Below the pieces are notes generated by a model that ran no database searches, was not told the DNA's origin, and saw only the letters and a list, made by a program, of their open reading frames with translations. From positions 11,738 to 75,737 of the forward strand of contig JAISCE010000003.1 of NCBI GenBank assembly GCA_031265765.1: a stretch of DNA of 64,000 bases. The letters run 5' to 3'. How positions within the stretch are numbered: the stretch's first letter is position 1; each line of letters opens with the position of its first letter. The DNA is from Azoarcus sp. (GTDB lineage: Bacteria; Pseudomonadota; Gammaproteobacteria; Burkholderiales; Rhodocyclaceae). This document shows positions 3,001-27,209 of the stretch, piece by piece. A program made the translations under genes and the position numbers.

Positions 3001-4673
3001 GATCGCCCCTGCTCCTGAACGTGTGTGCCGATAGCGGCGGAACGCCGCTCTGGAATACGGTGAACCCGTTGTCGGTGACGTTCGCGGCGGACGAAGCGAC
3101 CGTGAGCGGCGTCTACAGCTTTTTCTACGAAGATGTGGGCAGGCTGGAATTGCTCGTGCGCGTCGCGGGGGACAACACCAGAAAAGGCGGCAGCGGCGTT
3201 TTTGTGCGAAAGCCCGCCGCGCTGGTGTTGAAAGATGTGCGCTGCGCGGACGGCACACCCAATCCGGCTGCGACGGGGGCGGGCGGCACCCGTTTCTGCC
3301 GTGCCGGGCAGCCGTTCGGGATGACGCTGGAGGCACAATCCGTGCAGGGAAACGGCGCGCCCAATTTCGGCTATGAAAATGTGCCCAAGGGCATATTCCT
3401 GGAAAAACGCCTGTGGCTGCCGCAGGATGGGAGCGCCCACGATCCCGATCTTGCCTTGCGGGGCGTGAGCGGCTTCACGAATGGCGCGGTCACGATCACG
3501 GAGCAATCCTGGCCGGAAGTCGGCATCATCGCCATCACCCCCCGGCTGGGCGATGCCGCCGCGGACGGCGGCATGATACTGAGCGATCGATATCTGGACG
3601 CGGGCGACGTGCTATCGGAAAAAGTCATCGTCGGCCGGTTTTATCCCAGCCATTTCCAGACCGAAACCGGCGGCGCGGGCCGCATGGAATGCCCGCCCGG
3701 CATGAGTTGCCCCGAAGGCGGTTTCTTCTATGCCGGCCAGCCTTTCGACCTGACGGTGAAAGCCTGCCTCTATGGGGACGAAACCTGCGTCGGACGGTTG
3801 GAAAATTATCGCGGCGATTTTGCGGCGACGGTCAAGCTGAGCGCCTGGGGCGTGCGCGGATCGAATGCGGAGGCGGACCGGAATCCGCCCGATGCCGGCG
3901 CGAACGGCGGGTATCTGGAACCCGTGCCGGGCAAGGGCTTGAGCGCCGCGGTCATTCCGGGCGATAAATTCGCGGGCGGCGATGGGTTCGGGGGACTTTT
4001 CACCGGCTCGTTCAGATATGCCCATACTTTCAAGACCCGGCCCGTCGAGCCGACCGATGTCTACATCCGCGCCGCGGAAGACGGGCGCGACAGCGTGAGT
4101 TCCCGCCGGCCCGCCGCGGCGGATCGTTCGCCGGAAGGCGGCATCAGGCTCGCGCGCGGTCGCCTCCTGCTGTCCAACAGCTTCGGTTCGGAAAAGGACG
4201 CTCTGGAAATACCCGTGCAAGTCCAGTTCTGGGACTGCTTCGGCGTCGACCGCTGCGACTGGACGGCGAGCGCGACGGACACGACCCGGATCGAACCGGA
4301 TTCCGGCCTGGCCGACGCGGACAAGCGGGCGGCGCTCGCGGTTTCCCTGCATCCGGTACAAGGCATCGCCACGATGCCGGAAGTCGACAGGCTCGAACTC
4401 TCCGGCGGCGCGGGCAGGATCGTCCTGCTGTCGCCCGGCGGCGCGGGAAGCCTCAATGTGAGCGTCAATCTGGGCGATACCGTCGAAGACAATGCCTGCG
4501 ACCATGCAGCCGGGGCGCGGGAAGGCGCGGCGGCGAAAGTCCCCTGGCTGCGCGCCTGGAACGGCGTTTGCGCGGGAGCGCAGTCCGGCGAGGCCGACCC
4601 GTCCGCGCGCGCCACATTCGGGACTTACTCCGGCGAAAGACGACGGTCCGTACATAGCCGGGAACTATATTGA
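1..4673 (+). CDS. Large surface/pilus-associated protein, MshQ-like (LamG-like jelly-roll plus DUF11/TIGR01451-type repeat). 5' end lies beyond the window edge; the frame is open back to nt 3.
   Basis: 1544-aa ORF with no upstream in-frame stop. Contains a LamG-like segment (NGWVAASPHSDCESH...YWLRRGDDDF) and a DUF11-like repeat (GIYVLSVKNNGPDRMRGTLEVVDTLP...TVTCSWNGDL) typical of MSHA-pilus MshQ proteins. Assigned by pattern recognition only. Confidence 0.4.
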   Translation, partial: TDPRLYEWKYTRVYLEKVDDPNRGKSNNFCTDSTDITNIKANGSGLAMAFSLFGDDDFSKANRKALESLPSGDYKLSIQAFNTEALCTGNKTSMSELTNINGSLRLKAVQEIVSATVNGAASSWLQPGEKFDLGVVLKNNRPGTDKSARLNRVEWLIATAPPAPTATNHAPGMNCAEPGTTSSGFSGTFSSNSVVTVPAGTAYGTYNLYLRGNGNSSCTASASNDYPISPLFVLKNAITVEPGIRHIKMTPSQPPPQPPVTVGRNDVTVIWEVKFLQPVAGVNTNAFRLISSGVGASGASIVSIMGVGDTYYVTTKVPAGSVAPDQLASLRLDFHDDDSVRTVTGNRPMGGPGQGNGNFTGETYALRGTICGESNVIWCDDFERSVQGAARSNLVGNGWVAASPHSDCESHAPASNAQPDAGGCAGIDSDIKPYHLYANLRANSSRSMFNRWREHTVTSEVIDLSGLSADTVVELSYWLRRGDDDFAEKPDLSTDNFITKYLDRNNQWQILARYRSTNGKGVAGEVLRPVFQLPAEALWSGFRLRFEQAHGSGSTSHSNAGKVNGYDYWFIDDVVLRRVDMPRYVGGFCDNFEAPAASLKQWTFNQEDISTGAGSGLRIGDAGVTGDVYPASGSPNHSLFLRWSYIVASTLRIDTRGLGGNIRYVAQRGMKDPPDTINGADVNKTCIYTTADKEDSFVSEYFGADGKWHTLDSIAGKDSDTRCGEDISYTSAPLSGLPQAQHENFRLRFRQLSYSSGQNGNDHKDYWLVDDVCIGRTDGAFPRADLELTKTRENSLYPGGIGIYVLSVKNNGPDRMRGTLEVVDTLPTEMRFHDFQGTGWFCEAAGQTVTCSWNGDLEKGQRAPDLRIYALVSESASGTLKNKGTLSSGAVDDPAPGNNTDDDEGVIEAIYFAFTKGQCKDGQAIEDMTSEAACSRYRFAGLAGEARSGIYITHVNASGTAAARLSSSASTAMRLEFALRCVDPSRPPPQGAVNATFGAGSPLLLNVCADSGGTPLWNTVNPLSVTFAADEATVSGVYSFFYEDVGRLELLVRVAGDNTRKGGSGVFVRKPAALVLKDVRCADGTPNPAATGAGGTRFCRAGQPFGMTLEAQSVQGNGAPNFGYENVPKGIFLEKRLWLPQDGSAHDPDLALRGVSGFTNGAVTITEQSWPEVGIIAITPRLGDAAADGGMILSDRYLDAGDVLSEKVIVGRFYPSHFQTETGGAGRMECPPGMSCPEGGFFYAGQPFDLTVKACLYGDETCVGRLENYRGDFAATVKLSAWGVRGSNAEADRNPPDAGANGGYLEPVPGKGLSAAVIPGDKFAGGDGFGGLFTGSFRYAHTFKTRPVEPTDVYIRAAEDGRDSVSSRRPAAADRSPEGGIRLARGRLLLSNSFGSEKDALEIPVQVQFWDCFGVDRCDWTASATDTTRIEPDSGLADADKRAALAVSLHPVQGIATMPEVDRLELSGGAGRIVLLSPGGAGSLNVSVNLGDTVEDNACDHAAGAREGAAAKVPWLRAWNGVCAGAQSGEADPSARATFGTYSGERRRSVHSRELY

Positions 4674-16128: not shown

Positions 16129-17595
16129 ATGAAACTCTCCCTCGGCCCGCTGCTTTACTACTGGCCGCGCCAGCGTGTGTTCGATTTCTACGGCGAAGCC
16201 GCTGCCTGCGAAGCCGTCGATATCATCTATCTCGGCGAAACCGTCTGTTCGCGCCGTCACGAATTGCGGCTCGACGACTGGCTCGCGCTTGCCGCCGAAT
16301 TGTGCGGAGCGGGCAAGGAAGTCGTGCTGTCCACCCAGGCATTGATCGAATCGGAATCCGATCTCAAGACCTTGCGCCGCGTCATCGACGAAAAGAATTT
16401 CCGTATCGAGGCCAACGACATGGGCGCGGTTCGGCTGCTGGCCGAAGCCGGCCGCCGAAACTGGATCGCCGGGCCGACGCTCAACATCTTCAACCCCGTC
16501 ACGCTTGCCCTCCTCGTCGATGAAGGCGCCAGCCGTTGGGTCGTTCCGCCCGAGATGGCCGGAGAGAACGTCGCCGGTCTGCGCGCCGGGATGCCCGCTC
16601 CCATCGAAACCGAAATCTTCGCCCATGGCCGCCTGCCGCTGGCCTACTCCGCGCGCTGCTTTACCGCCCGGCACTACAACCTGCAAAAAGACGCCTGCGA
16701 ATTCCGTTGTCTGCGCGACGGCGACGGCATCCTGCTGCGCACGCGCGAAGGCGAACCCTTCCTGACGCTCAACGGCATCCAGATCCAATCGGCGAGGGTC
16801 TACAACCTGCTCGCCGACCTGCCGGAAATCGCCGGTCACGCCGAAATCCTGCGCATCAGCCCGCAAAGCGGGCACACCCTGGAAATCGCGGCGCTTTTTC
16901 GCGCCGCGCTCGACGCGCGCCTCAGTCCGGCAGCCGCCTTTGCCGCTTGCCGGGCGCTGATGCCGGAAGCGCCCTGCAACGGCTTCTGGCATGGCCGGGC
17001 GGGACTCGAATATCTGCCGTCCGGAACTGCCGCGCCCACCGTCTCCGCGCCTGCGCCCGCCGTTTCGCCGCCCGTTTTGCCCGCCGCGCCCATGCCCGCG
17101 ATCCCGTCCCTGATCCGCTTGCTGCCTGCCGGGGTGCGCGACCGCATCGCGCAAAAGTTGCGGCGCGCGCGCCTTCCCGCGTTCACCGTGCCCGCGCCGC
17201 TTGCCCGGCTCAACGCGAGGCTGCCTCAACTTCCGGCCACGCTGGCGCTGACCACGGCGCTCAACCTTGCGCCGGAAGCCCTGTTGCCGCGCGCCGCGCT
17301 CTTGTCCCTCACTGGCCGCCGCCTGCGCGTATGCGTGCTCGATGCCGGGTTCAGCCTCGACTTCACCCTTGGCGCAAATGGGCGTTTCCGCCCCTGCCGC
17401 GCCGCGGCTGCTGCCGACCTGACGATTTCCGCCGCGCTGCGCGATTTTCTCGCGCTCGCCCTGCGTGAAGAAGACGCCGATACCCTTTTCTTTGGCCGCC
17501 GTCTGCATATGGAAGGCGATACCGGACTCGGCGTGCTGGTCAAGAACACACTCAACGCCGTCGACTGGAACAGCATTTTCGCCGCCCAGGCTTGA
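16129..17595 (+). CDS. ubiV: U32-family protein UbiV with a C-terminal Ala/Pro linker and an SCP2-like (UbiT-like) domain
   Basis: YhbV-like N-terminal ~290 aa, then linker [20 protein letters not shown], then a ~160-aa domain ending [26 protein letters not shown] (SCP2 signature). RBS GGAG 11 nt upstream. Confidence 0.6.
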
Positions 17596-17649
17596 GTTCT
17601 CCATAAATATCCGGCGGCGGCCAGCGGGTGGAAAAGCGCCAAGCGCGCT

Positions 17650-17886
17650 ACTGAACCCTATTGCCATGCGCACGCCATCAAATGACATGATGAAATCGCC
17701 AAGCGATAAAACCATAGCCATGTACGCTTCACCGGATTTACCCATGAGTTTGAGAAAAACCTGCTGCTTTTGCAGGTTTTTGTCGCTTCTGGCGAATGCA
17801 TCGGCCATCTTGAGCATGATTTGCTCAGTATCCATTTTTTTCAGATCGGCAACGGACAGACCGATGCCCTTGAATGCCTTAGTCAT
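17650..17886 (-). pseudogene. Phage tail tape-measure protein N-terminal fragment
   Basis: MTKAFKGIGLSVADLKKMDTEQ...QVFLKLMGKSGEAYMAMV resembles the conserved TMP N-terminus (..AMELFGKSG..). The frame then runs into GC-rich antisense of ubiV and is not a genuine continuation. Confidence 0.3.
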
Positions 17887-17999
17887 TTATTTGTTGCCGC
17901 TGATTGCGCCGCTTTGTGCGCGCTTCAGCTTGGAGATACCAGAAGCGTGCCGAGAAATGGATACACTAGTCTTACTATGTCACAAAAGTAGTATTTTGT

Positions 18000-18299
18000 T
18001 TATTCGTCCGCAGCAGGGACACAGCGGGATGCGAAGGAGTAGTACCACTCATTGGATTTGTCATCGATGTCACGCCCGCTTTCCGTCCGTAACTGCTCAT
18101 AGCGCCGGATCATCATCCCTACCGTGACACCGCCAGGATCGTACCCCTGTGCCCCGTCCGCAATGGCCGCCTCCGTTCGCTGTGCCCATGCAACCGCCGC
18201 CGCTTTCGTCGGGAACGTTTTGCAGATAGACTTCGTCCCGCGCCGCCGTACTTGGACACGCCACTTGTCGCCGATTTTGAGTATTGATGCTATGAACAT
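18000..18299 (-). pseudogene. Tyrosine integrase N-terminal (arm/AP2-like DNA-binding) fragment; catalytic domain absent
   Basis: KIGDKWRVQVRRRG...KTFPTKAAAVAWAQRTEAAI motif. The ORF stops after ~100 aa. Confidence 0.4.
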
Positions 18300-18447
18300 T
18301 TTCGCTGTAGCAAGAATGGTAGCAACGAAATGTGAGACAGCGTGCGGCAGAATGATGGAACGTGAAGCGAGCAATGTCGAAAACCCGCGTCAATCCAGGG
18401 AATCAGGCGGTTTCCTTACCTATTGCCAAGCACTATAAACCCCCTAT

Positions 18448-18522
18448 CTCCCCGTAGTTCAATGGATAGAACGAGCGCCTCCTAAGCGCTAGATACAGGT
18501 TCGATTCCTGTCGGGGGGACCA
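18448..18522 (+). tRNA. tRNA-Arg (anticodon CCT), unusual C1-G72 / U2-G71 acceptor
   Basis: Hand-folded: acceptor CTCCCCG/CGGGGGG, D-arm GTTC-AATGGATA-GAAC, anticodon stem-loop AGCGC-CTCCTAA-GCGCT, T-arm ACAGG-TTCGATT-CCTGT, discriminator A, CCA. Confidence 0.75.
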
Positions 18523-18634
18523 GCGCACTGTTCGATACCGTCCGATCAAGGCCGAAACATCCAAGGAAATCAAGGATTCCCGCCCGCAATTCGTCGAGCG
18601 ATCTACACGACCGATGCCATTGATGAGAGACGAC

Positions 18635-20035
18635 ATGACCTCGACTGTCCGCACCCGCTTCGCTCCGAGTCCGACCGGCTATCTGCACATCGGCGGCGCG
18701 CGTACCGCGCTGTTTTCATGGGCCTATGCCCGCCATTGCGGCGGCAAGTTCATCTTGCGCATCGAAGATACCGATCTCGCCCGCTCCACGCCGGAAGCGG
18801 TGCAGGCCATCCTCGACGGCATGGCCTGGCTCGGACTCGACCACGATGAAGGGCCGTTCTACCAGACGCGGCGCATGGATCGCTATAAAGAAGTCATCCA
18901 GCAAATGCTCGCCGACGGCACGGCCTACCGCTGCTACACCTCGAAGGAAGAACTTGATGCCCTGCGCGCGGCGCAGGAAGCGAGAAAGGAAAAGCCGCGC
19001 TATGATGGGCGCTGGCGGCCCGAACCCGATAAGACGCTGCTGCCCGCGCCCGCGGGGATCGCGCCGGTCTTGCGGTTCAAGAACCCGAAGGATGGCGCGG
19101 TTGCCTGGGACGACATCGTAAAAGGGCGCATCGAGATTGCCAACGCCGAACTCGACGACTTCATCATCGCCCGCGCCGACGGCACGCCGACCTACAATTT
19201 CTGCGTCGTTGTCGACGACTGGGACATGGGCATTACACATGTCATCCGCGGCGACGATCACGTTAACAACACTCCGCGCCAGATCAACGTTCTTGCGGCG
19301 CTGGGCGCGGCCATTCCGCGGTACGCCCATCTTTCGATGATCCTCGGCGACGATGGCGCGAAGCTCTCCAAGCGCCATGGCGCGGTGAGCGTCATGCAAT
19401 ACCGGGACGCGGGCTATCTGCCGGGAGCGGTCATCAATTATCTTGCCCGGCTCGGCTGGAGCCACGGCGATGACGAACTATTCAGCCGTGAGCGTTTCGT
19501 CGAATGGTTCGACCTCGACCGCATCACCTCCTCGGCGGCGCAATTCAACACCGGCAAACTGGACTGGCTCAACGCCCAATACATCAAGGCCGCCGGCGAC
19601 GGCGTCCTCGCGCGGGAGGCGGGCGAACGCCTTGGCGTACTGGGCATCGATACTGCGGGCGGCCCCGGACTCGACGCGGTTGCGGCGCTCTACAAAGAAC
19701 GCGTGAACAACCTCAACCAACTGGCCGAAGCCCTCGCGCCGTTTTATCGGGCGCCCGCCATTCCCCCGGCGCTCGCCGAAAAACATCTCGACGCTCCGGC
19801 ACGCGCGATGCTGGCCTCGCTCGGCGACCGGTTGGAGAAACTCCCGGACTGGGAAAAAGACGCCATCAGCCAAGCGATCAAGGAAACCCTCAAAGAACAT
19901 GACCTGAAAATGCCGCGTTTGGCGATCCCGCTACGGGTCGTCCTGTTCGGTGTGGAGCACACCCCCTCCATCGACGCCGTCCTGGCCGTGCTCGGGCGCG
20001 GCCAGACCTTGCAAAGATTGGCGGGGCTGCGCTGA
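18635..20035 (+). CDS. gltX: Glutamate--tRNA ligase
   Basis: [19 protein letters not shown] (HIGH) and KLSKRHG (KMSKS) motifs. Confidence 0.9.
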
Positions 20036-21400
20036 AGCGTCAGCTTCGTTTGTTGCTGTCTTCTGGGCAATGTTGCGCTGCCATGCAGGATCGTAAAGCA
20101 CGCTGCAATTGCGGCCCGCCGCCTTGGCCGCATAGAGTGCCTCGTCCGCGCGGCGCAGCGGCTCCTCGGCGCCCACATCTGTCGAGAGCAACTCGGTAAT
20201 TCCGATACTGACCGTGACGCGCATCAGCGTATTGCCGATCCTGGTCGGACTCGTCTCGAAAGTCCGCCGCAGCCGTTCCGCGACTTCACGCGCCCCATAG
20301 ATACCGTCGCCGGGTAAGAGAATGGCGAACTCCTCCCCGCCTATGCGGCCGATGACATCGCTTCGGCGCATGGTCTGCTGGGCGGTGTGCACAAAATGAT
20401 TGAGTACCGCGTCTCCCGCCGCGTGCCCGTGGTCATCATTGACGCACTTGAAAAAATCGAGATCCGTCATCAATAGCGAAACAAAACCGCCATGGCGGCG
20501 CTGCCGCGCCAGTTCCGTTTCCAACTGATCGAAAAAATGCCTGCGATTGCTGGCGCCGGTCAGAGAATCCGTCGTTGCCAGCCGCAATAACGCTTCTTGC
20601 CGATTGCGCTGTTCGGTCGTATCGCAAAATATCACTATCGCGCCCGTCTTTTGCCCCCGTTCGTAAATCGGCGTGACCCTCATTCGCGCCGGGAAAAAAC
20701 TGCCGTTTCGCCGAAACAGCCACACTTCACTCTGGTGTACCTCGCCATCGTCCAGCGTTTGCGTGAGCGGGCAATTCGCAGCTGGATGTACACGGCCATC
20801 CGGATAATGATGATGAAAAAGATCGTGCAGGTTTTTGCCCATCGCTTCTTCGAGTGCGCAGCCGTGCATGGTGAGTGCGGCGCGATTCATTGAAGTAATG
20901 TTTCCGTTGTTATCGACGCTGCAAATGCCATCGGTCGTCGTATTCAGGAGCAGGGTGTTATGCTGCAAAACCTTTCCGGCCTCGGCGACGCTCAATGCCA
21001 GACGGCGCTTCCACTGGCGGCGCGACAGGCGCAGTAAAAACAAAATACACAACAACGCCACGAAATAACTGGCCGTAAAAGCGTAGACGGTCGTTGCAAG
21101 AACAGCTTTGCGGTTTTCGTTGAGCATGTGCTGCATTTCGGTATTGATATAGATATTGTGCTGTAATACCCGTTCATGCCGCTCGGGCACCGCATTCCTG
21201 GCGATGCGGGCATCGTGAAGCAGGCTGGCGTTGGCGAGCGCAGTATCGAAATGCCAGTCGATCTGCCGGGATAAGCAATACCCCGTAACTGAGAAAATCA
21301 CGGCGAGCGCGATACCGGTTAGCAAGACCATAAGCCTGTTGGGCATTGTGTTATTCGTCTCCGTTATGGGGGAGGTACCCGTATTGTATGAAAAACACAT
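19931..21400 (-). CDS. Membrane-anchored PAS-GGDEF diguanylate cyclase
   Basis: N-terminal TM segments, a PAS-like region, and a GGEEF active site ([11 protein letters not shown]). Alternative start at 21346. The 3' end overlaps gltX by ~105 nt on the opposite strand. Confidence 0.75.
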
Positions 21401-21426
21401 GTTGCCCGATGTTGGCTTTCTCGGCG

Positions 21427-22923
21427 TTAATCATCTCCCTTCCCGGCATCCATTGTGATTCCTTCCCTTTTGCCGCGCGGCAAAAACGTCTGGTGTGTCA
21501 GACTTGTATCGAAGGGCAGGGCCGTGGCCTCCTCGTCGCATTCAACCCGATGCAAGCTTTGCGCCAGCGCCGGATAGACGGTTTGCAAATCCGGTTGCAG
21601 CTCGATGGCTTCTTTCAGGTAGACGGTGGCGATCTCGGGGTGTCCGGTTTTTAGCATTTCTTCTCCAAATGCGGCCTTGATGTCGGCGCGTCCAGGTGCG
21701 ACACGATCCGCCTGCGCGATGAAATCGGCTGCTTCCTGCAACAAACCCTGATGGGCGGCGATGAAGCCGAGGTAGGCAAATGGGAGCGGGTTGTTCGGTT
21801 CCCGCGTCATGGCAGCGGAAAGAAATTCGATGGCGGCGGCGTAATCGCCGGCGTTGAATGCCCTGATGCCGTCTTCGATTTCATTGCCGCTTCGGTAGGA
21901 AACGGTATTTCCCGGTCTTGGCGCGAGAAAGACGATTTCATCGGCTTGCGGGCAGGGCGGATAATCGCAGTTTGCCGCCAGCTTTTCTTCGGCTTCGTGC
22001 AAAATCAAATCCAGTACGGCTTGCGCATCGAAGGGATCGATACAGGGATGCAGCACCGATGGAAGAGATGCCCGGCTGCGCAAAAAATCTTCAGGGCGGC
22101 TTAAAACGACGCCGGGAAAAGCCGAAAAGAACTCGCATTGTATCCTTTGCTCTACGGCATTTTCCGAGGGCAAGGCGACGACAGGCGTTCCCATCGCGCT
22201 GGCCTCGATGATGATTCCGGAAAGCCCATTGGCTACAGCGACGCGGGTATCCTGTATGGTATCCCCTGTATGTTGCTGCGCGGGAATGACGTGGACGCCC
22301 CTTGCCCGGAACGCTTCTTCAAATTCCAGATAACCCGGCCAACAGGGAAACTTTATGGCAACGCCTTCATTCAGGATCGGGGAAATTTTTTCGTATGTCC
22401 GATCGATTCCATAACGTCTCACATGGCTCGTGAGATCCGAGAAGAACCAGACACAGTCATGGGATCGTTCGGCAGGCGGCTTCCATGCGTTACGATATGA
22501 AATCCATCCCGCATTGTGGAATTTTGCGGGCTTGGGCTGGTAGCCGAAAAATGGCGTTGGCCACAGCACGAGATCGAATGCCGACAACAATGCGGGTTCA
22601 TTCAAAACCAGAGGCGTGGTTAGGTCATGGGGATAAAAAACAGATAAAACCGGTTTGGCATGGAACAGGATTTCGAGAAAATCGGCCCCGATCTTGATGT
22701 CCGGATAGGCAGATGCCAAATTCTGTGCGTCGCGTGTAAAATGCGCTGAAGTCAGCAGGATGAATGGCGTCGAAAGAAGGCGGGTGAGTTCCTCCTGTCT
22801 GCTCATACCTTCATCCGGCAAGACCAGTACCTCGTGGCCCCGATTGTGCACGGCGTCGGCAAAGTCTGAAAGCAGTATGTTTTCAGAACCATAGCCCCAG
22901 ATGACGAAAATGGGGGATATCAT
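21427..22923 (-). CDS. GT-B fold glycosyltransferase (GT1/MurG-like) with a C-terminal TPR domain
   Basis: C-terminal GT-B motif RVAVANGLSGIIIEASAMGTPVVALP, TPR-like tail. ATGA overlap with the upstream gene. Confidence 0.5.
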   Translation of the reverse strand: MISPIFVIWGYGSENILLSDFADAVHNRGHEVLVLPDEGMSRQEELTRLLSTPFILLTSAHFTRDAQNLASAYPDIKIGADFLEILFHAKPVLSVFYPHDLTTPLVLNEPALLSAFDLVLWPTPFFGYQPKPAKFHNAGWISYRNAWKPPAERSHDCVWFFSDLTSHVRRYGIDRTYEKISPILNEGVAIKFPCWPGYLEFEEAFRARGVHVIPAQQHTGDTIQDTRVAVANGLSGIIIEASAMGTPVVALPSENAVEQRIQCEFFSAFPGVVLSRPEDFLRSRASLPSVLHPCIDPFDAQAVLDLILHEAEEKLAANCDYPPCPQADEIVFLAPRPGNTVSYRSGNEIEDGIRAFNAGDYAAAIEFLSAAMTREPNNPLPFAYLGFIAAHQGLLQEAADFIAQADRVAPGRADIKAAFGEEMLKTGHPEIATVYLKEAIELQPDLQTVYPALAQSLHRVECDEEATALPFDTSLTHQTFLPRGKREGITMDAGKGDD

Positions 22924-23759
22924 GGCGTGCGCTCCGTCGAATTGACGCAATGGAATGAAGCGGAGGGGATTTTCTGGGAAAACAACATCAGGATTGGCGG
23001 CAACGTCGAGACAGTGGCAGGCGATGCATAGACGTAGAAACCCAGGTTCTCATCCCGGCGTGTCACATAGTTTTCTTCCTCCGATTCGGCCAGCCTGGAT
23101 ATTTCGGTAAAACCAGCGTTATGAATCAACAGGCGGACGGTATTCTCACTCCAGTCTTCTGTCCTGATTGAGAGCAGAAGGCTCTTCGCTCGTTCGCAAA
23201 CTTGCTGTATCTGGCTACGACAACGGAGGACAAGGCTGGAAAGCCACGGATCGGGAATCCAGACTATGTCGCATTCGTTGATTACCGTGAAGACGGATTC
23301 CAGATCGCCGGGATGGAGGCTCTCTGCGTAATTCCCGGATTTGTCCCGCGTGATGACCGTAAATGGCCCATTGATGGCGTGCAAGCGTATTTCCAGACTT
23401 TCCTCGAGATCAGTGGCTTCGAGCAGATCCGTATATTCCACACGGTTTGTCGTAAGTACGCACAGATGCTTGTCTGTCAGGTCAAGACTGCGCAATTGCC
23501 AATAGTGTATATAGGCTGATTGATGCATCAGATAAGATGGCGATAAGTAGAAAGCGTTCTGGATATCACAATGTACCGAAAACAAATGTCCATGTATATC
23601 CTTCGTTTGTTGAGAGATTTGCAATCCGTAAGGAAGCGGCAAGCTTCTGAGTGTCAAGTGTTCGAGTTTTTGCGCAAGTTCGGAATTTTCATGACTCAAT
23701 TCCTGTAAACGCTTCTCCTGCGTCAGCAGCAAGTCGAGAATTTTTTGCAAGATTTCCAT
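22920..23759 (-). CDS. Hypothetical protein (N-terminal coiled coil), low GC
   Basis: 279-aa ORF in an AT-richer islet, no recognisable domain. Translationally coupled to the downstream GT gene. Confidence 0.4.
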   Translation of the reverse strand: MEILQKILDLLLTQEKRLQELSHENSELAQKLEHLTLRSLPLPYGLQISQQTKDIHGHLFSVHCDIQNAFYLSPSYLMHQSAYIHYWQLRSLDLTDKHLCVLTTNRVEYTDLLEATDLEESLEIRLHAINGPFTVITRDKSGNYAESLHPGDLESVFTVINECDIVWIPDPWLSSLVLRCRSQIQQVCERAKSLLLSIRTEDWSENTVRLLIHNAGFTEISRLAESEEENYVTRRDENLGFYVYASPATVSTLPPILMLFSQKIPSASFHCVNSTERTP

Positions 23760-23774
23760 CTGTCCGCACTCTCC

Positions 23775-24848
23775 TCACATCTGGTTTCTTCGTTCAAATT
23801 CAAACCACCACACTGCCGAGTCTGCCCTATGCTGGTAAAGTGGAAAGGCGTCGTGCAACGACCATCCCTTTGATTGAATGGCATTTATTATTTCCTCTTT
23901 TGTTCGATAATATGCGGTGTAAAGTGAATCCAGTTCCGGCGAGAAGAAATTGACCAGATCGAATCTTTTTTCCATGGCAATACTTGTTCTTAGCAATAAT
24001 TGCGATGATTGATGCGCGAATTCTCCGACATGCGCCAACAATCGCTCAAATTGCTCATCATCCAGGGATGGTGTAATTCCGGACAATAAAATCAGGTCAA
24101 AATATTTCTCTGTCTGAAATTCTGCAACATCCGCGACGTGCAGGTGGATATGCGGGAGATTCGTCTTTTTTTGACTGGCGATTGCAATGAGTTCATTTGA
24201 AAAATCAACCCCGGTCACATCGTCGAATTTCCGGGCAATCGTGGCCAGGTGGCGACCATCTCCGCATCCCAGATCAATCAGGCTTCTAGCTTTGCTCCGC
24301 TCGGCGCATTTTTCAATGAGATCGCACTCGTGCGCCGTTTCGTGGAACATTTTTCCCTGGTCTCCTCCAAAACTGCCCAAAGTGGTCACGCCAGCCGGCA
24401 AATCGGCTTGTTTTGCCGCCCGCGACGCCCAGAAAGACTGTAATTTTGCGCGTATCGACGTTGAAGAAACCTTCGATGTTCGTGGGATGTGCACTACATG
24501 CACACCATGTATGGCGCAGTATTCCAGCGTTTGCAATTGATCTGGATACTCCCGATTCTGACCGTATTCGTCTCCGCAAACAAAAACATCTATCTTCAAC
24601 GCAGCCAGCAAGGCTCCTTGAAACACACTCGAATAGCTTACGACCGCGGAAACAAAACGAAGTTGCTCGATCAGGGCAATACGCTCCGCCAACGACGTAA
24701 CGGGGCTGACGCCTTTCTGACATTTGACGGCTCTATCTTCCTGCACCGCGACAATCAGTTCGTCGCCCTCTCGACTAGCCGCCAGCAGATAATTCAAATG
24801 CCCAATGTGGAAAACATCGAATACGCCGGGTACAAGCACTTTGCTCAA
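23775..24848 (-). CDS. Bifunctional TagD-like cytidylyltransferase (HxGH) / class I SAM-dependent methyltransferase
   Basis: GVFDVFHIGHLNYL...DVFVCGDEYG matches glycerol-3-phosphate cytidylyltransferase. MTase motif I LIDLGCGDGRH. Start called at the TTG at 24848 with an AGGAGA RBS; the ORF track extends to 25049 through an Arg-rich, non-protein-like tail. Confidence 0.55.
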   Translation of the reverse strand: MSKVLVPGVFDVFHIGHLNYLLAASREGDELIVAVQEDRAVKCQKGVSPVTSLAERIALIEQLRFVSAVVSYSSVFQGALLAALKIDVFVCGDEYGQNREYPDQLQTLEYCAIHGVHVVHIPRTSKVSSTSIRAKLQSFWASRAAKQADLPAGVTTLGSFGGDQGKMFHETAHECDLIEKCAERSKARSLIDLGCGDGRHLATIARKFDDVTGVDFSNELIAIASQKKTNLPHIHLHVADVAEFQTEKYFDLILLSGITPSLDDEQFERLLAHVGEFAHQSSQLLLRTSIAMEKRFDLVNFFSPELDSLYTAYYRTKEEIINAIQSKGWSLHDAFPLYQHRADSAVWWFEFERRNQM

Positions 24849-25183
24849 TTTATTTCTCCTGGCGATGGGCGGCAACGTATTACCCGCTTCAAATCGTGAC
24901 GGTACGGTGCGTGGATGGACGCGTCGCCGGATATGCGTTCGCCAGGCGCGCGCAGCGGGTCGGGCGCAGCGTAAAATCCTTTTATCATTGTTGGAATTCC
25001 CTCGTATGGAACGGGCATGTGCGTTGTCGGCCTCTGGATTCGATGACATAACTGTGCGCCCGGCAGGACGATCACATTTGGAGTGCCTGGGCGATTTCCA
25101 GTTCCCCTGATATCATGACGATGCTGTTTGACTTGCTACCGAGTGGTTTGTCATGATTGCGCTTTCGCCGGATGGAGAACGGA

Positions 25184-26671
25184 ATGACGCTTGCGCTTGT
25201 CCGCACCCGGGCGCTCGATGGCCTCACTGCGCCCGAGGTCACGGTCGAGGTTCATCTTGCCAATGGTTTGCCGTCTTTTACGCTCGTCGGCCTGCCCGAC
25301 ACCGAGGTGCGCGAGGCGCGCGACCGGGTGAGGGCGGCCCTGGTGACATCGCGGTTCGAGTTTCCACAGCGCCGCATCACAGTCAACCTTGCGCCCGCCG
25401 ATCTGCCCAAGGAAGGCGGGCGCTTCGATTTGCCGATTGCCCTGGGCATCCTTGCCGCCTCGGGACAAATCGCGGCGCGTTCGCTCGAAGGCCATGAGTT
25501 TTGCGGCGAATTATCGCTCGACGGCAGTTTGCGCGGCATCCGGGGACCGCTTGCCGCCGCGCTTGCTTCTGGAAAAGCGCAGCGCGCGCTGGCCTTGCCG
25601 CGCGTCAATGCCGACGAGGCGGCGCTTGCGCGAGGTGTGACGGTGTTGCCGGCAAATTCATTGCTGGCGCTTTGTGCGCATCTTGCCGGACGCGATCCGA
25701 TTTTGCCGCACGTCGCTCCCGTGCGGGCGATTGCCGCCAATGCGTCGGATCTTGCCGACGTGCGCGGCCAGTTGCAGGCGCGGCGCGTGCTCGAAGTGGC
25801 TGCGGCGGGCGGGCATTCGCTGCTTTTTTTCGGCCCGCCGGGCACGGGAAAGTCGATGTTGGCGCAACGCCTGCCGGGCTTGCTGCCGCCGCTCGACGAA
25901 AACGAGGCGCTGGAAAGCGCGGCGGTGCTCTCGCTCGGCGGCCTGTTCGACGCCGCGCATTGGGGGCTGCGGCCATTTCGCGCGCCCCACCATTCCGCCT
26001 CGGCGGCGGCCTTGATCGGCGGCGGTTCCATGCCGAAGCCGGGGGAAGTGTCGCTTGCCCACCATGGCGTGCTTTTTCTCGACGAACTGCCCGAATTCGA
26101 CCGCCGGGTGCTCGAATCGCTGCGCGAACCGTTGGAAACCGGAACGGTCAGCGTGGCGCGCGCGCAGCGGCGGGCCGAATTCCCGGCGCGTTTTCAACTC
26201 GTGGCGGCGATGAATCCTTGTTCCTGCGGTTATGCCGGCCATCCGGCAAGGGCATGCACCTGCTCGCCAGCCCAGATTGCGCGCTATCGCGCCAGATTAT
26301 CGGGGCCGCTGCTCGACCGGATCGACCTTATGGCCGAGGTGCCCGTCGTGCCTTTCACCGATTTGGCGACGACTGCCGCGGGCGAATCGAGCGCCGAAGT
26401 TCGCGCAAGGGTGGTATGCGCCCATGCGCGGCAGATGTCCCGGCAGGGCGTCCCCAATGCCCGGCTGGAAGCGGGCCGGGTCGAGCCGCTGTGTGCGCCG
26501 GACGCGGCTGGCGCGGCGCTGCTCGCCGCCGCGATGCAGCGTCTCAACCTGTCGGCGCGCGCCTACCATCGCGTGCTCCGTGTGGCGCGCACGCTGGCCG
26601 ATTTGAGCGGCGCCGAACGCCCCGGCACGGCGCACGTAGCCGAAGCGATCCAGTACCGGCGCGGATTTTGA
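25184..26671 (+). CDS. yifB: Mg-chelatase-like AAA+ ATPase YifB/ComM
   Basis: Walker A GPPGTGKSM, characteristic ComM N-terminal domain, RBS GGAG. Confidence 0.85.
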   Translation: MTLALVRTRALDGLTAPEVTVEVHLANGLPSFTLVGLPDTEVREARDRVRAALVTSRFEFPQRRITVNLAPADLPKEGGRFDLPIALGILAASGQIAARSLEGHEFCGELSLDGSLRGIRGPLAAALASGKAQRALALPRVNADEAALARGVTVLPANSLLALCAHLAGRDPILPHVAPVRAIAANASDLADVRGQLQARRVLEVAAAGGHSLLFFGPPGTGKSMLAQRLPGLLPPLDENEALESAAVLSLGGLFDAAHWGLRPFRAPHHSASAAALIGGGSMPKPGEVSLAHHGVLFLDELPEFDRRVLESLREPLETGTVSVARAQRRAEFPARFQLVAAMNPCSCGYAGHPARACTCSPAQIARYRARLSGPLLDRIDLMAEVPVVPFTDLATTAAGESSAEVRARVVCAHARQMSRQGVPNARLEAGRVEPLCAPDAAGAALLAAAMQRLNLSARAYHRVLRVARTLADLSGAERPGTAHVAEAIQYRRGF

Positions 26672-26726
26672 GGAGAGGAGTCCTTTGGGGGCGGGCTTAG
26701 AAAGACCGTATGTTTTCGTCATTGCG

Positions 26727-26755
26727 TTGACCTGGATAGTAAGTATATATATAAT
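26727..26755 (+). promoter_or_regulatory. Near-consensus sigma70 promoter (TTGACC-17 nt-TATAAT)
   Basis: Read directly from the sequence upstream of the MarR-like fragment. Confidence 0.45.
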
Positions 26756-26795
26756 AAATGCCATCATCGCAAGGAGCGTAATGCCGTAGCAATTC

Positions 26796-27209
26796 ATGAA
26801 GCCGTATGGATTGCCACGGTGCTATGCGCCTCGCAATGACGGATGTCATGCATTATGCGCGTTCATTTGGAAAACCTTCGTCTCCCAAGCGCAGGTAGCC
26901 ACGATGGCCGACATGGATGTCATGCTGGTTTCACAGATTGTCAGGAATCTGGAAAAAAGCGGTTTTTTGACGCGCTCGGAAAATCCCCAGGACTCGCGTT
27001 CCTACGCGCTCCATCTGAGTAACAAGGGCAAGACGGCTGTCAAGACGGCTTTGCCGGTTGTCGAGGCATCGACGATGAGTTTTTCAGCGGGCTTGGCGAA
27101 AACAGAAAAACCTTCCTCGCCCTTTTGCGGCAGCTTGTCGCCACTTGCGATGAGTGGTCTGCGTAGGCCCCTCAAATATCGTGCACGTGAACACGTTCCG
27201 GCGGTATGA
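26796..27209 (+). pseudogene. MarR-family regulator fragment (wing/recognition-helix region only)
   Basis: VSQIVRNLEKSGFLTRSENPQDSRSYALHLSNKGK matches the MarR wHTH C-terminal half. The N-terminal ~60 aa of a normal MarR is missing. Lower-GC DNA. Confidence 0.4.

What the first reader, a model, noticed from the sequence alone, without database searches (positions are those of the whole stretch)
19931..25049. Lower-GC four-gene islet between gltX and yifB: PAS-GGDEF, GT-B/TPR glycosyltransferase, unknown protein, cytidylyltransferase-methyltransferase fusion
From ~20.0 to 25.1 kb the GC content drops visibly (AT-rich codon usage, e.g. 22920-24850). All four genes are on the minus strand, opposite to the flanking housekeeping genes.

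The last three are tightly linked. The unknown gene and the GT overlap as ATGA. The TagD-like cytidylyltransferase/SAM-MTase has an AGGAGA-TTG start.

The cytidylyltransferase half closely follows the glycerol-3-phosphate cytidylyltransferase pattern (FDxxHxGH ... DVFVCGDE). In a Gram-negative that suggests CDP-glycerol (or a related CDP-alcohol) synthesis for decorating a glycan. The fused MTase and the GT/TPR protein could complete a small modification pathway, and the c-di-GMP cyclase is a plausible controller.

The 279-aa protein has no recognisable domain.
Basis: partly seen in the sequence, partly recalled or inferred. Interest (0 to 1): 0.55.

Follow-up and report, generated by a model that had tools for sequence, protein, structure and literature searches.

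The report
Portable flagellin-glycan decoration cassette, relocated
The low-GC islet is real, and its three linked genes are an uncharacterised cassette that in related bacteria sits beside flagellin genes, where it most likely adds a methylated, phosphate-linked small molecule to protein-bound sugars; here it has moved away from any flagellar gene and sits next to a c-di-GMP cyclase.

Summary
**Observation: confirmed.** GC is 0.53 over 19931-25049, against 0.625 ± 0.017 for other windows of that size (z = -5.6). Four intact minus-strand genes lie between gltX and comM/yifB, and the stated gene junctions are correct.

**Interpretation: partly right.**
- The domain calls hold: PAS-GGDEF; a GT-B fold plus TPR; an orphan 279-aa protein; and a TagD-superfamily nucleotidyltransferase fused to a SAM methyltransferase.
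- Comparative context changes the meaning. The trio (fusion, 279-like, GT-B domain) recurs in the same order in eight other distinct loci. Four are next to intact flagellin genes, one is next to a flagellin remnant, and two others lie in glycan-type clusters.
- Elsewhere the fusion pairs with a LicD-type phosphotransferase, and never with the 279-like/GT-B pair.
- In one relative the fusion also carries a ThrH (phosphoserine:homoserine phosphotransferase) domain. In another locus the 279-like/GT-B pair follows a separate HAD, nucleotidyltransferase and methyltransferase set like FtaA/B/C.

**Best reading.** This is a non-orthologous variant of the C. difficile Fta / P. aeruginosa PA1088-1091 pathway. 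It would make a CDP-linked, N-methylated phospho-head-group and transfer it onto a protein-linked glycan. CDP-glycerol is less likely.

**Open points.** The head group, the target protein and the role of the 279-aa protein are all inferred. In this genome the cassette is displaced, low in GC and under purifying selection.

The parts
23775..24848 (-). 357-aa bifunctional enzyme. The N-terminal half is an HxGH nucleotidyl(cytidylyl)transferase of the TagD/ECT/CCT superfamily. The C-terminal half is a class I SAM methyltransferase. It uses a TTG start with an AGGAGA ribosome-binding site.
   Evidence: - Pfam CTP_transf_like 6e-18 and Methyltransf_25 1e-13.
- The FHIGH, RT..VSSTSIR and DLGCGDG motifs are invariant across 34 family members.
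- PDB sequence hits: ECT 3elb 5e-14, TagD 1coz 5e-10; TylM1, DesVI and CalS10 N-methyltransferases 1e-9 to 1e-7.
- About 75 clusters of full-length fusion relatives among 5.8e9 proteins.
- Start site read.
22920..23759 (-). 279-aa orphan protein that is always the partner of the GT-B domain. It has an N-terminal long helix followed by an alpha/beta core. Its role is unknown. It may be an accessory or second catalytic subunit of the transfer step, with a weak hint of a Rossmann / methyltransferase-like fold.
   Evidence: - No Pfam, NCBIfam or PDB sequence hit.
- Only 5 homologues among 5.8e9 proteins, and 14 representatives among 1.84e9.
- It lies immediately upstream of the GT-B domain in all nine distinct loci that carry the pair.
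- dN/dS is 0.15 against L008.
21427..22923 (-). 498-aa protein. Residues ~1-320 are a conserved GT-B-fold domain from a family not yet described. Residues ~345-465 are TPR repeats. It is proposed to be the transferase, either a phosphotransferase like TagF/FtaD or a glycosyltransferase. The TPR would act as a protein-substrate docking module.
   Evidence: - AlphaFold pLDDT 76.
- The TPR region resembles the OGT TPR. Pfam sees only the TPR.
- There are 69 invariant columns in the alignment of 17 homologues, almost all in the N-domain.
- The N-domain occurs alone in L097 and fused to GT2 domains in L096 and L179.
19931..21346 (-). Membrane-anchored PAS-GGDEF diguanylate cyclase (471 aa) with an intact GGEEF active site and an RxxD I-site. 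It lies 80 nt downstream of the cassette on the same strand. Its 3' end overlaps the 3' end of gltX by 105 nt.
   Evidence: - Pfam GGDEF 5e-41 and PAS 6e-18. NCBIfam GGDEF domain 3e-45.
- The sequence '[14 protein letters not shown]' and two hydrophobic N-terminal segments can be read.
- It is conserved with the cassette in L008 (91% aa, dN/dS 0.30).
- It shares only the GGDEF domain with the cassette-adjacent GGDEF genes of L010 and L096.
24849..25156 (.). Divergent intergenic region between the fusion gene and comM. It is the presumed promoter region of the cassette.
   Evidence: Sequence read. The simple sigma-70 scan found only a comM-directed match, at 25128-25157 (+), and the number of matches was no higher than in shuffled sequence. 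The cassette promoter is therefore not identified.

Best explanation
Genes 21427-24848 form a three-gene 'post-glycosylation modification' cassette.

**Proposed steps**
1. The fusion enzyme activates a small phosphorylated head group with a nucleotide, probably CTP. It then N-methylates the head group with SAM while it is still nucleotide-bound. The most likely substrate is O-phospho-homoserine, -threonine or -serine, giving a CDP-N-methyl-amino acid. This matches FtaB + FtaC of C. difficile and PA1090 + PA1088 of P. aeruginosa.
2. The 279-aa protein and the GT-B/TPR protein occupy the functional slot that LicD fills in other lineages and FtaD fills in C. difficile. They would transfer the phospho-head-group onto a sugar of a protein-linked glycan. 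The TPR repeats would dock the protein substrate.
3. Homologous loci suggest that the usual substrate is flagellin.

**Situation in this genome**
- The cassette is compositionally foreign and lies between gltX and comM, away from any flagellar gene in the 64-kb window.
- It is followed by a membrane PAS-GGDEF cyclase, which may or may not be functionally coupled.

**Shown:** domain content, intact catalytic motifs, fold, gene linkage, comparative context, purifying selection.

**Inferred:** nucleotide specificity, identity of the head group, the division of labour between the 279-aa and GT-B proteins, and the target.
For: 1. **Flagellin and glycan context.** The same ordered trio occurs in eight other distinct loci.
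   - Next to intact flagellin genes: T. butanivorans L002 (fliC directly upstream), Azoarcus MAG L010 (two fliC and flaG downstream), Thauera MAG L012 (fliC-flaG-fliD), L096 (flagellin-flaG-fliD-fliS).
   - Next to a flagellin remnant: L098.
   - Among TPR-GT41 genes: L179.
   - In a kps/rhamnose capsule-type locus: L097.
2. **Complementary distribution.** Where the 279-like/GT-B pair is absent (L005, L094, L095, L015), the fusion overlaps a ~205-245-aa LicD-family gene. LicD and the pair never co-occur within +/-10 kb.
3. **ThrH fusion.** In L015 the fusion carries an extra N-terminal ThrH domain (NCBIfam PRK13582, 3.6e-70, 235.8 bits against a cut-off of 133). Its sequence includes the motif FDLESILVPEIW.
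4. **FtaA/B/C-like set.** In L097 the pair follows separate HAD-IB phosphoserine-phosphatase-like, NTP_transf_3 and small SAM-methyltransferase genes. That is the FtaA/FtaB/FtaC set, with the pair in FtaD's place. The fusion's methyltransferase half shows weak similarity to that small methyltransferase (24% over 186 aa, 3e-10).
5. **Methyltransferase relatives.** The closest solved relatives N-methylate nucleotide-linked amines. FtaC has been shown to methylate CDP-threonine, and FtaD is a TagF-like phosphotransferase (bioRxiv 10.64898/2026.02.12.704994). P. aeruginosa b-type flagellin carries Rha-P-N,N-dimethylthreonine (PMC11833859).
7. **Selection.** dN/dS is 0.15-0.21 for the trio against L008.
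Against: - No flagellin or pilin homologue lies in the 64-kb window, so the target here is unknown.
- The window has no ThrH/HAD gene. The substrate would have to be a pre-existing metabolite.
- The cytidylyltransferase is of the TagD/HxGH type, not the FtaB (NTP_transferase) type. Its best NCBIfam hit is the RfaE adenylyltransferase domain, below cut-off, so even the nucleotide is not established.
- The 279-aa protein has no assignable fold.
- LicD's classical substrate is CDP-choline, which fits an ethanolamine/choline head group equally well.
- The LicD Pfam scores straddle the gathering threshold (20.1-24.5 bits against 22.6).
Confidence: 0.6

Rival explanations
1. The fusion makes CDP-glycerol, or a methylated derivative of it. 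The GT-B/TPR protein uses this to decorate LPS, EPS or capsule with glycerol-phosphate.
For: - The cytidylyltransferase half hits TagD (1coz 5e-10; TIGR01518 1.9e-15).
- Glycerol-3-phosphate is a universal metabolite, so no kinase is needed.
- The L097 relative sits in a kps-type capsule locus.
Against: - The TagD equivalog score is 57 bits against a cut-off of 165.
- ECT is a better PDB hit than TagD.
- The methyltransferase half resembles N-methyltransferases rather than O-methyltransferases.
- The ThrH fusion in L015 and the FtaA-like HAD in L097 have no role in a glycerol pathway.
- Seven of the nine distinct pair-bearing loci carry TPR docking modules (on the GT-B protein or on neighbouring GT41 genes) or lie beside flagellin genes, which points to a protein substrate.
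Confidence: 0.1
2. The head group is an amino-alcohol. The fusion would be a bacterial ECT/CCT-like enzyme plus a PEAMT-like enzyme. It would convert phosphoethanolamine to CDP-N-methylethanolamine or CDP-choline. The product would then be transferred, by LicD or by the 279-like/GT-B pair, as a phosphocholine-type decoration.
For: - The best PDB hit of the cytidylyltransferase half is human ethanolamine-phosphate cytidylyltransferase (5e-14); CCT also matches (3e-5).
- The methyltransferase half matches plant phosphoethanolamine N-methyltransferase (1.7e-5).
- The partner in four lineages is a LicD-family protein, whose founding member transfers phosphocholine.
Against: - The ThrH domain fused in L015 is a phosphoserine:homoserine phosphotransferase by a curated equivalog model.
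- No ethanolamine kinase or serine decarboxylase is seen in any locus.
- The PEAMT match is much weaker than the matches to NDP-sugar N-methyltransferases.
Confidence: 0.15
3. The pathway is the same but the roles are swapped. The GT-B/TPR protein is a true glycosyltransferase that puts the first sugar on the target protein, like CD0240 or the GT half of PA1091. The orphan 279-aa protein is the new phosphotransferase, the functional equivalent of LicD or FtaD.
For: - The GT-B model matches GT1/GT28 glycosyltransferases as well as it matches TagF.
- TPR-glycosyltransferase fusions are a known design for protein glycosylation; the TPR resembles that of OGT.
- The N-domain is fused to further GT2 domains in L096 and L179.
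- The 279-like protein is the only other component that is always present when LicD is absent.
Against: - The stand-alone N-domain in L097 has no TPR and sits exactly where FtaD would follow FtaA, FtaB and FtaC.
- The flagellin-linked loci already encode several large glycosyltransferases (WbsX, GT2, GT41).
- The 279-aa protein shows no nucleotide-binding or DxD-type signature that I could recognise, and its fold hint is methyltransferase-like.
Confidence: 0.2
4. The islet is inert horizontally acquired cargo, or is decaying. It has no current function in this organism because it has been separated from its flagellin context.
For: The islet has a strong compositional anomaly. No flagellin lies within 64 kb. 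The TPR region differs from that of the flagellin-linked relatives.
Against: - All four reading frames are intact, with conserved catalytic motifs.
- dN/dS is 0.15-0.30 against a relative with dS of about 0.14-0.25.
- The block is colinear and equally conserved in that relative.
Confidence: 0.05

Closest known systems
C. difficile type A flagellin post-glycosylation pathway FtaABCD (CD0241-CD0244) with the GT CD0240
   Same: - The logic is the same: phospho-head-group, then the CDP-activated form, then SAM N-methylation on the CDP-linked intermediate, then transfer to a sugar on flagellin by a GT-B-fold enzyme (bioRxiv 10.64898/2026.02.12.704994; PMC10714395).
- Relatives of the window's cassette reproduce the missing parts. 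L015 fuses a ThrH (FtaA-like) domain to the enzyme. L097 has a HAD, nucleotidyltransferase and methyltransferase set followed by the 279-like/GT-B pair.
   Different: - The cytidylyltransferase is the TagD/HxGH fold, not the NTP_transferase fold of FtaB, and it is fused to the methyltransferase.
- The islet has no FtaA.
- FtaD's slot is filled by two proteins, one of them an orphan.
- A TPR module is attached.
- The host is a Gram-negative member of the Rhodocyclales.
- In this window the cassette is not next to fliC.
- No sequence-level homology to FtaD or FtaB was tested, because I had no access to their sequences.
P. aeruginosa PAO1 b-type flagellin glycosylation island PA1088-PA1091
   Same: - It is proteobacterial and linked to flagellin.
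- It uses a methyltransferase, a ThrH-like HAD and a cytidylyltransferase, plus a large transferase that fuses glycosyltransferase and phosphotransferase activities.
- The product is Rha-P-N,N-dimethylthreonine (PMC11833859; bioRxiv 10.64898/2026.02.12.704994).
- L096 and L179 likewise fuse the GT-B domain to GT2 domains.
   Different: The cytidylyltransferase fold and the gene fusions differ. The 279-aa family is additional. The published survey of Fta and b-type clusters lists Bacillota and Pseudomonas species and mentions no Rhodocyclales, although I did not read its supplementary table.
Lic-type phosphocholine decoration (LicC cytidylyltransferase + LicD transferase)
   Same: In four lineages the fusion enzyme is translationally coupled to a short LicD-family protein. 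That is the classic pairing of a CDP-donor synthase with a LicD transferase.
   Different: The window has no LicD. The cytidylyltransferase is not of the LicC type. A methyltransferase is fused to it. No choline kinase or transporter is present.
TagD/TagF wall teichoic acid enzymes
   Different: The fusion scores below the TagD equivalog cut-off. There is no polymerase context, and the fused N-methyltransferase-like domain has no counterpart.

Membership tests
Fta / PA1088-1091 type A-like flagellin post-glycosylation system | A ThrH-like HAD phosphotransferase (FtaA/PA1089) encoded in the cluster | tested here: not met
   tblastn found no ThrH or HAD homologue anywhere in the window. The domain is present in relatives: fused in L015 (PRK13582 3.6e-70) and as a separate gene in L097.
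Fta / PA1088-1091 type A-like flagellin post-glycosylation system | An NTP_transferase-fold CTP:phospho-amino-acid cytidylyltransferase (FtaB/PA1090) | tested here: not met
   The window's enzyme is PF01467 CTP_transf_like (HxGH fold), not NTP_transf_3. The L097 relative does have an NTP_transf_3 gene. The step is analogous, not orthologous.
Fta / PA1088-1091 type A-like flagellin post-glycosylation system | A class I SAM methyltransferase acting on the CDP-linked head group (FtaC/PA1088) | tested here: inconclusive
   - The methyltransferase domain is present with an intact DLGCGDG motif.
- It is 24% identical (3e-10) to the methyltransferase at the FtaC position in L097.
- Its closest PDB relatives are NDP-sugar N-methyltransferases.
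- The substrate was not tested.
Fta / PA1088-1091 type A-like flagellin post-glycosylation system | A TagF-like GT-B phosphotransferase (FtaD, or the phosphotransferase part of PA1091) | tested here: inconclusive
Fta / PA1088-1091 type A-like flagellin post-glycosylation system | Location next to the flagellin gene | tested here: not met
   No flagellin homologue lies in the 64-kb window. The feature is met for the homologous trio in L002, L010, L012 and L096, and by a flagellin remnant in L098.
Glycerol-3-phosphate cytidylyltransferase (TagD, TIGR01518 equivalog) | Score above the curated equivalog cut-off | tested here: not met
   The score is 57.0 bits against a cut-off of 165.4. The RfaE domain II model scores higher (76.5 bits) but is also below its own cut-off.
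Cytidylyltransferase-like superfamily (PF01467) | HxGH and RTxxxSxT nucleotide-binding motifs, and a Pfam score above the gathering threshold | tested here: met
   The score is 65.8 bits against 21. FHIGH and RT..VSST are invariant in 34 sequences.
GT-B fold glycosyl-/phospho-transferases | Two Rossmann-like lobes matching solved GT-B enzymes | tested here: met
LicD phosphotransferase family | A LicD-domain protein encoded with the donor synthase | tested here: not met
   None is present in the window or in any locus with the 279-like/GT-B pair. It is present only in L005, L094, L095 and L015.
GGDEF diguanylate cyclase | A GGDEF domain with a GG[D/E]EF active site | tested here: met
   Pfam 140.5 bits against 23.8. 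GGEEF and an RxxD I-site are present in the translation.
Horizontally acquired genomic islet | Atypical composition together with mobility signatures, or absence from close relatives | tested here: inconclusive
   - The composition is atypical (z = -5.6).
- There are no flanking direct repeats beyond chance and no mobility gene inside.
- The islet is present at the same site in the only close relative found.
- No empty site was found among 34 more distant comM loci, none of which has gltX next to comM.

The most novel reading that the evidence does not exclude
The trio is a self-contained, horizontally mobile module for installing a CDP-derived, N-methylated phospho-amino-acid on protein-linked glycans. 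It is built from two enzyme families not yet described: the 279-aa orphan and a new GT-B phosphotransferase clade that replaces LicD/FtaD. In this lineage it has been uncoupled from flagellin and recruited next to a c-di-GMP cyclase, so it would modify a non-flagellin surface target or be under c-di-GMP-linked control.
Probability: 0.25. Interest if true: 0.7.

Novelty: new variant of a known kind. Interest (0 to 1): 0.5.

Why it matters
- **Timeliness.** CDP-activated amino acids, and the enzymes that hang them on flagellin sugars, were shown biochemically only in 2023-2026, and only in C. difficile and P. aeruginosa. This cassette suggests that the same chemistry has been assembled independently from different parts: a TagD-type cytidylyltransferase fused to the methyltransferase, and a new GT-B family plus an orphan partner in place of FtaD or LicD.
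- **Spread.** The chemistry appears across Rhodocyclales flagellin islands, a Pseudomonas-group pilin island, a capsule locus and some Planctomycetes.
- **Practical yield.** It gives concrete candidates for two unassigned protein families. It also gives cultured strains in which to test them, Thauera butanivorans for the trio and Ectopseudomonas khazarica for the LicD form.
- **Limits.** For this particular window the interest is moderate. The finding is a displaced copy, and its target cannot be seen from 64 kb.

Tried and rejected
- **Genome-collection scan.** It gave just two full-length loci, L014 (the same as L012) and L015.
- **Search for an empty site.** A metagenome scan with ComM returned 80 loci at 50-67% identity. 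None has gltX, the trio or an empty gltX-comM junction, so insertion could not be shown.
- **PDB profile search with the GT-B/TPR alignment.** It found only TPR proteins.
- **Plasmid search.** There is no full-length fusion on plasmids, so a plasmid origin is not supported.
- **Flanking repeats.** All are short and at chance level, so there are no att-like sites.
- **Promoter scan.** The number of matches is no higher than in shuffled sequence.
- **Verma 2006 paper.** It is not held in the library.
- **Defence-system or phage reading.** Rejected. Nothing in the four genes or their relatives points that way.

Full report
**1.

GC falls from about 0.62-0.65 in the flanks to 0.455-0.55 across 20-25 kb. 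For 487 other windows of the same length it is 0.625 +/- 0.017, with a minimum of 0.586 (z = -5.6). The three-gene core is 0.512.

Third-position GC is 0.50-0.66 in the four genes, against 0.75-0.78 in gltX and comM.

All four genes are on the minus strand, between gltX (18614-20035, +) and comM/yifB (25157-26671, +).
- an ATGA stop/start overlap between the 279-aa gene and the next gene;
- GGAGAG, 8 nt, then ATG for the 279-aa gene;
- AGGAGA, 6 nt, then TTG for the fusion gene.

Independent gene calls on an identical public contig give 357, 279, 498 and 471 aa.

**2. What the proteins are**

*Family scans.* Pfam and NCBIfam confirm PAS + GGDEF, with an intact GGEEF site and an RxxD I-site. 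They find TPR repeats at residues ~360-480 of the 498-aa protein. They find CTP_transf_like plus a class I SAM methyltransferase in the 357-aa protein. They find nothing for the 279-aa protein.

*The fusion enzyme.* Its nucleotidyltransferase half is below the TagD equivalog cut-off (57 bits against 165.4). It scores slightly better on the RfaE adenylyltransferase domain. Among solved structures it is closest to human ethanolamine-phosphate cytidylyltransferase (5e-14), then TagD (5e-10), and it also matches the Fom1 cytidylyltransferase domain (1e-7). Its methyltransferase half is closest to enzymes that N-methylate nucleotide-linked amino sugars (CalS10, TylM1, DesVI; 1e-9 to 1e-7). A weaker match is to plant phosphoethanolamine N-methyltransferase. 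The HxGH, RT..VSST and DLGCGDG motifs are invariant in 34 family members.

*The 279-aa protein.* It remains an orphan:
- 5 homologues among 5.8e9 proteins;
- 14 representatives among 1.84e9 with a profile;
- no Pfam hit even at E = 10;
- no PDB sequence hit.

**3. Related loci change the picture**

The nearest relatives are annotated as Azoarcus or Thauera, in the Rhodocyclales.

*The trio recurs, mostly beside flagellin.* The same ordered trio (fusion, 279-like, GT-B domain) appears in eight other distinct loci, listed below (homology checked).

| Locus | Source | Arrangement |
|---|---|---|
| L002 | Thauera butanivorans | fliC, trio, TPR-methyltransferase, WbsX-type giant GT, TPR-GT41 |
| L010 | Azoarcus MAG | GGDEF, DegT, trio, methyltransferase, WbsX/GT2, fliC, fliC, flaG |
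| L012 | Thauera MAG | trio, WbsX, TPR-GT41, fliC, flaG, fliD |
| L096 | unnamed metagenome contig | GGDEF, fusion, 283 aa, a 1499-aa protein whose first ~310 residues are the GT-B domain followed by GT2 domains, flagellin, flaG, fliD, fliS |
| L098 | unnamed assembly | flagellin C-terminal remnant, trio, methyltransferase, WbsX/GT2, ..., TPR-GT41 |
| L179 | Betaproteobacteria bacterium | trio with the GT-B domain fused to GT2 domains, near TPR-GT41 genes. This is the closest relative outside the window's own clade: 70% (fusion), 45% (279-like) and 59% (GT-B) identity |
| L097 | unnamed assembly | capsule-type locus, described below |
| L008 | Azoarcus MAG | the window's own arrangement in its closest relative, described in section 6 |

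*The fusion pairs with LicD elsewhere.* The fusion family is wider than the other two families, at about 75 clusters. Outside the group above it is translationally coupled to a ~205-245-aa LicD-family protein. This is seen in:
- Ectopseudomonas khazarica, in a pilin-adjacent glycan cluster with two pilins, two GT2 genes and a Wzx flippase;
- a Planctomycetaceae MAG;
- L095;
- an Arenicellales MAG, L015.

Pfam LicD scores are 20.1-24.5 bits against a threshold of 22.6. The four proteins are 36-51% identical to one another.

LicD and the 279-like/GT-B pair are strictly complementary across the 13 loci compared. That is the pattern expected if they fill the same step.

**4. Two loci tie the module to a known pathway**

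*L015.* The fusion is a 580-aa tri-domain protein. Its extra N-terminal domain is a ThrH phosphoserine:homoserine phosphotransferase. It hits PRK13582 at 3.6e-70 with 235.8 bits, against a cut-off of 133. Its sequence includes the motif FDLESILVPEIW.

*L097.* The gene order is:
- a 279-family protein (254 aa; hhalign probability 99.2%, E = 1e-19) and a stand-alone GT-B domain (309 aa);
- preceded by separate genes for a HAD-IB phosphoserine-phosphatase-like protein, an NTP_transf_3 nucleotidyltransferase and a small SAM methyltransferase;
- followed by kpsE/M/T-type export genes and rhamnose genes.

HAD, nucleotidyltransferase and methyltransferase is exactly the FtaA/FtaB/FtaC set of C. difficile, equivalent to PA1089/PA1090/PA1088 of P. 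aeruginosa.

*What is known about that pathway.*
- FtaA is proposed to make phosphothreonine, and FtaB to make CDP-threonine.
- FtaC is shown to N-methylate CDP-threonine.
- FtaD, which is TagF-like, is shown to transfer phospho-N-methylthreonine from the CDP donor to GlcNAc on flagellin (PMC10714395; bioRxiv 10.64898/2026.02.12.704994).
- P. aeruginosa b-type flagellin carries rhamnose-P-N,N-dimethylthreonine, and PA1091 fuses the glycosyltransferase and phosphotransferase activities (PMC11833859).

In L097 the 279-like/GT-B pair stands where FtaD would. The fusion's methyltransferase half also shows weak similarity to the small methyltransferase of L097 (24% over 186 aa, 3e-10).

**5. Most likely mechanism**

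*Shown:*
- The fusion has both sets of catalytic motifs.
- It is always linked either to a LicD-type transferase or to the 279-like/GT-B pair.
- In the Rhodocyclales the module lives in flagellin glycosylation islands.

*Inferred:*
- The fusion converts a phosphorylated head group into a nucleotide-activated (probably CDP) form and N-methylates it.
- The pair then transfers the phospho-head-group to a sugar on a glycoprotein, with the TPR docking the protein.

*The head group.* I favour a phospho-hydroxy-amino acid (homoserine, threonine or serine) because of the ThrH and FtaA-like partners. Where no ThrH is encoded, as in this window, O-phosphohomoserine from threonine biosynthesis or O-phosphoserine from serine biosynthesis would be available without a dedicated kinase. 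That point rests on established pathway knowledge and was not tested here.

Which of the two proteins is the actual phosphotransferase is also open.

**6. The situation in this window**

- tblastn with two flagellins found no flagellin homologue anywhere in the 64 kb. Pfam scans of 20 other window ORFs found no pilin or flagellar domain. The surrounding genes are housekeeping: ubiB, a U32/SCP2 protein, SMC, ligA, holA, pspA, and an ECF sigma factor with a YfbK-like protein.
- The closest relative is an Azoarcus MAG (L008). It carries the identical four-gene block at the same place. A single colinear 8.2-kb blastn segment of 93.7% identity runs from tRNA-Arg through gltX and the islet into comM.
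- dN/dS is 0.15-0.30 for the four islet genes. dS is 0.14-0.25, against 0.10-0.11 for gltX and comM. The block therefore predates the split of these two lineages and is under purifying selection.
- In the Thauera and Azoarcus flagellar loci the trio is not low in GC (0.61-0.67). In L179 and L096 it is (0.42-0.58). This fits acquisition from a donor of lower GC, but I could not find an empty site. None of 34 more distant comM loci has gltX adjacent, and no flanking repeats exist.
- GGDEF genes adjoin the cassette in L010 and L096, where they form an orthologous 590-aa pair, and in the window/L008 clade. The window's protein shares only the GGDEF domain with the other two. A regulatory link to c-di-GMP is possible but unsupported beyond this adjacency.

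**7. Verdict**

The finding is real. It is a displaced copy of an uncharacterised cassette that normally belongs to flagellin (and sometimes pilin or capsule) glycan clusters. It most likely performs Fta-like post-glycosylation chemistry with non-orthologous parts.

- It is not a member of the Fta/PA1088-1091 system in the strict sense. The HAD is absent, the cytidylyltransferase has a different fold, and the cassette is not beside fliC.
- It probably works like that system.
- Novelty: a new variant of a known kind.
- Interest: moderate (0.5). It would be higher for anyone working on CDP-amino-acid metabolism or flagellin modification, because it nominates two new protein families and testable cultured hosts.

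Noticed in passing
window 17500-18522: A second low-GC patch (0.525) lies just left of tRNA-Arg(CCT) (18448-18522). It contains a 124-aa ORF (18000-18374, -) that weakly matches the N-terminal part of phage integrases (phrog_1, E = 5e-4). Synteny with the 94%-identical relative L008 stops exactly at the tRNA. This looks like the remnant of an element integrated at tRNA-Arg, separate from the islet.
   Followed up: partly
window 19931-20035: The PAS-GGDEF reading frame runs 105 nt into the 3' end of the convergent gltX gene, past a terminator-like hairpin at 20031-20048. The ~55-residue low-complexity tail is therefore encoded antisense to gltX. The same overlap is called in L001 and L008.
   Followed up: no
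window 26678-27194: A MarR-family gene or fragment (26796-27209, +) is present here and on the identical contig L001. In the close relative L008 it is replaced by about 40 nt. This is a small indel between otherwise colinear genomes.
   Followed up: no
window 39-4673: A 1544-aa protein with DUF11 and DUF6701 domains sits at the left edge of the window. From memory, this architecture resembles MshQ-type pilus-associated proteins. A pilus cluster may lie just outside the window.
   Followed up: no
L015 8631-11779: An Arenicellales MAG has a LicD-like gene overlapping a 580-aa tri-domain ThrH-cytidylyltransferase-methyltransferase gene, followed by a Methyltransf_3 O-methyltransferase. The neighbour is a DruA/Tn5-transposase-like 803-aa ORF. 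I found no description of this tri-domain enzyme in the held papers.
   Followed up: partly
L097 7114-10930: A set of HAD, NTP_transf_3 and small methyltransferase genes (like FtaA/B/C), plus a 61-aa ORF, a 279-family protein and a stand-alone GT-B domain, lies inside a kpsE/M/T and rhamnose (capsule-type) locus rather than a flagellar one. This suggests that the chemistry is also used on polysaccharides.
   Followed up: partly
L005 4678-12315 (Ectopseudomonas khazarica): The LicD + fusion pair sits in a cluster directly downstream of two type IV pilin genes, together with a 627-aa protein without domains, two GT2 genes and a Wzx flippase. This is a candidate pilin glycosylation island with a phospho-head-group decoration.
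   Followed up: no
L098 7093-7317: A 75-residue match to the C-terminus of flagellin lies immediately upstream of the fusion gene, where the gene caller placed an 84-aa ORF on the opposite strand. It is probably a flagellin remnant.
   Followed up: no
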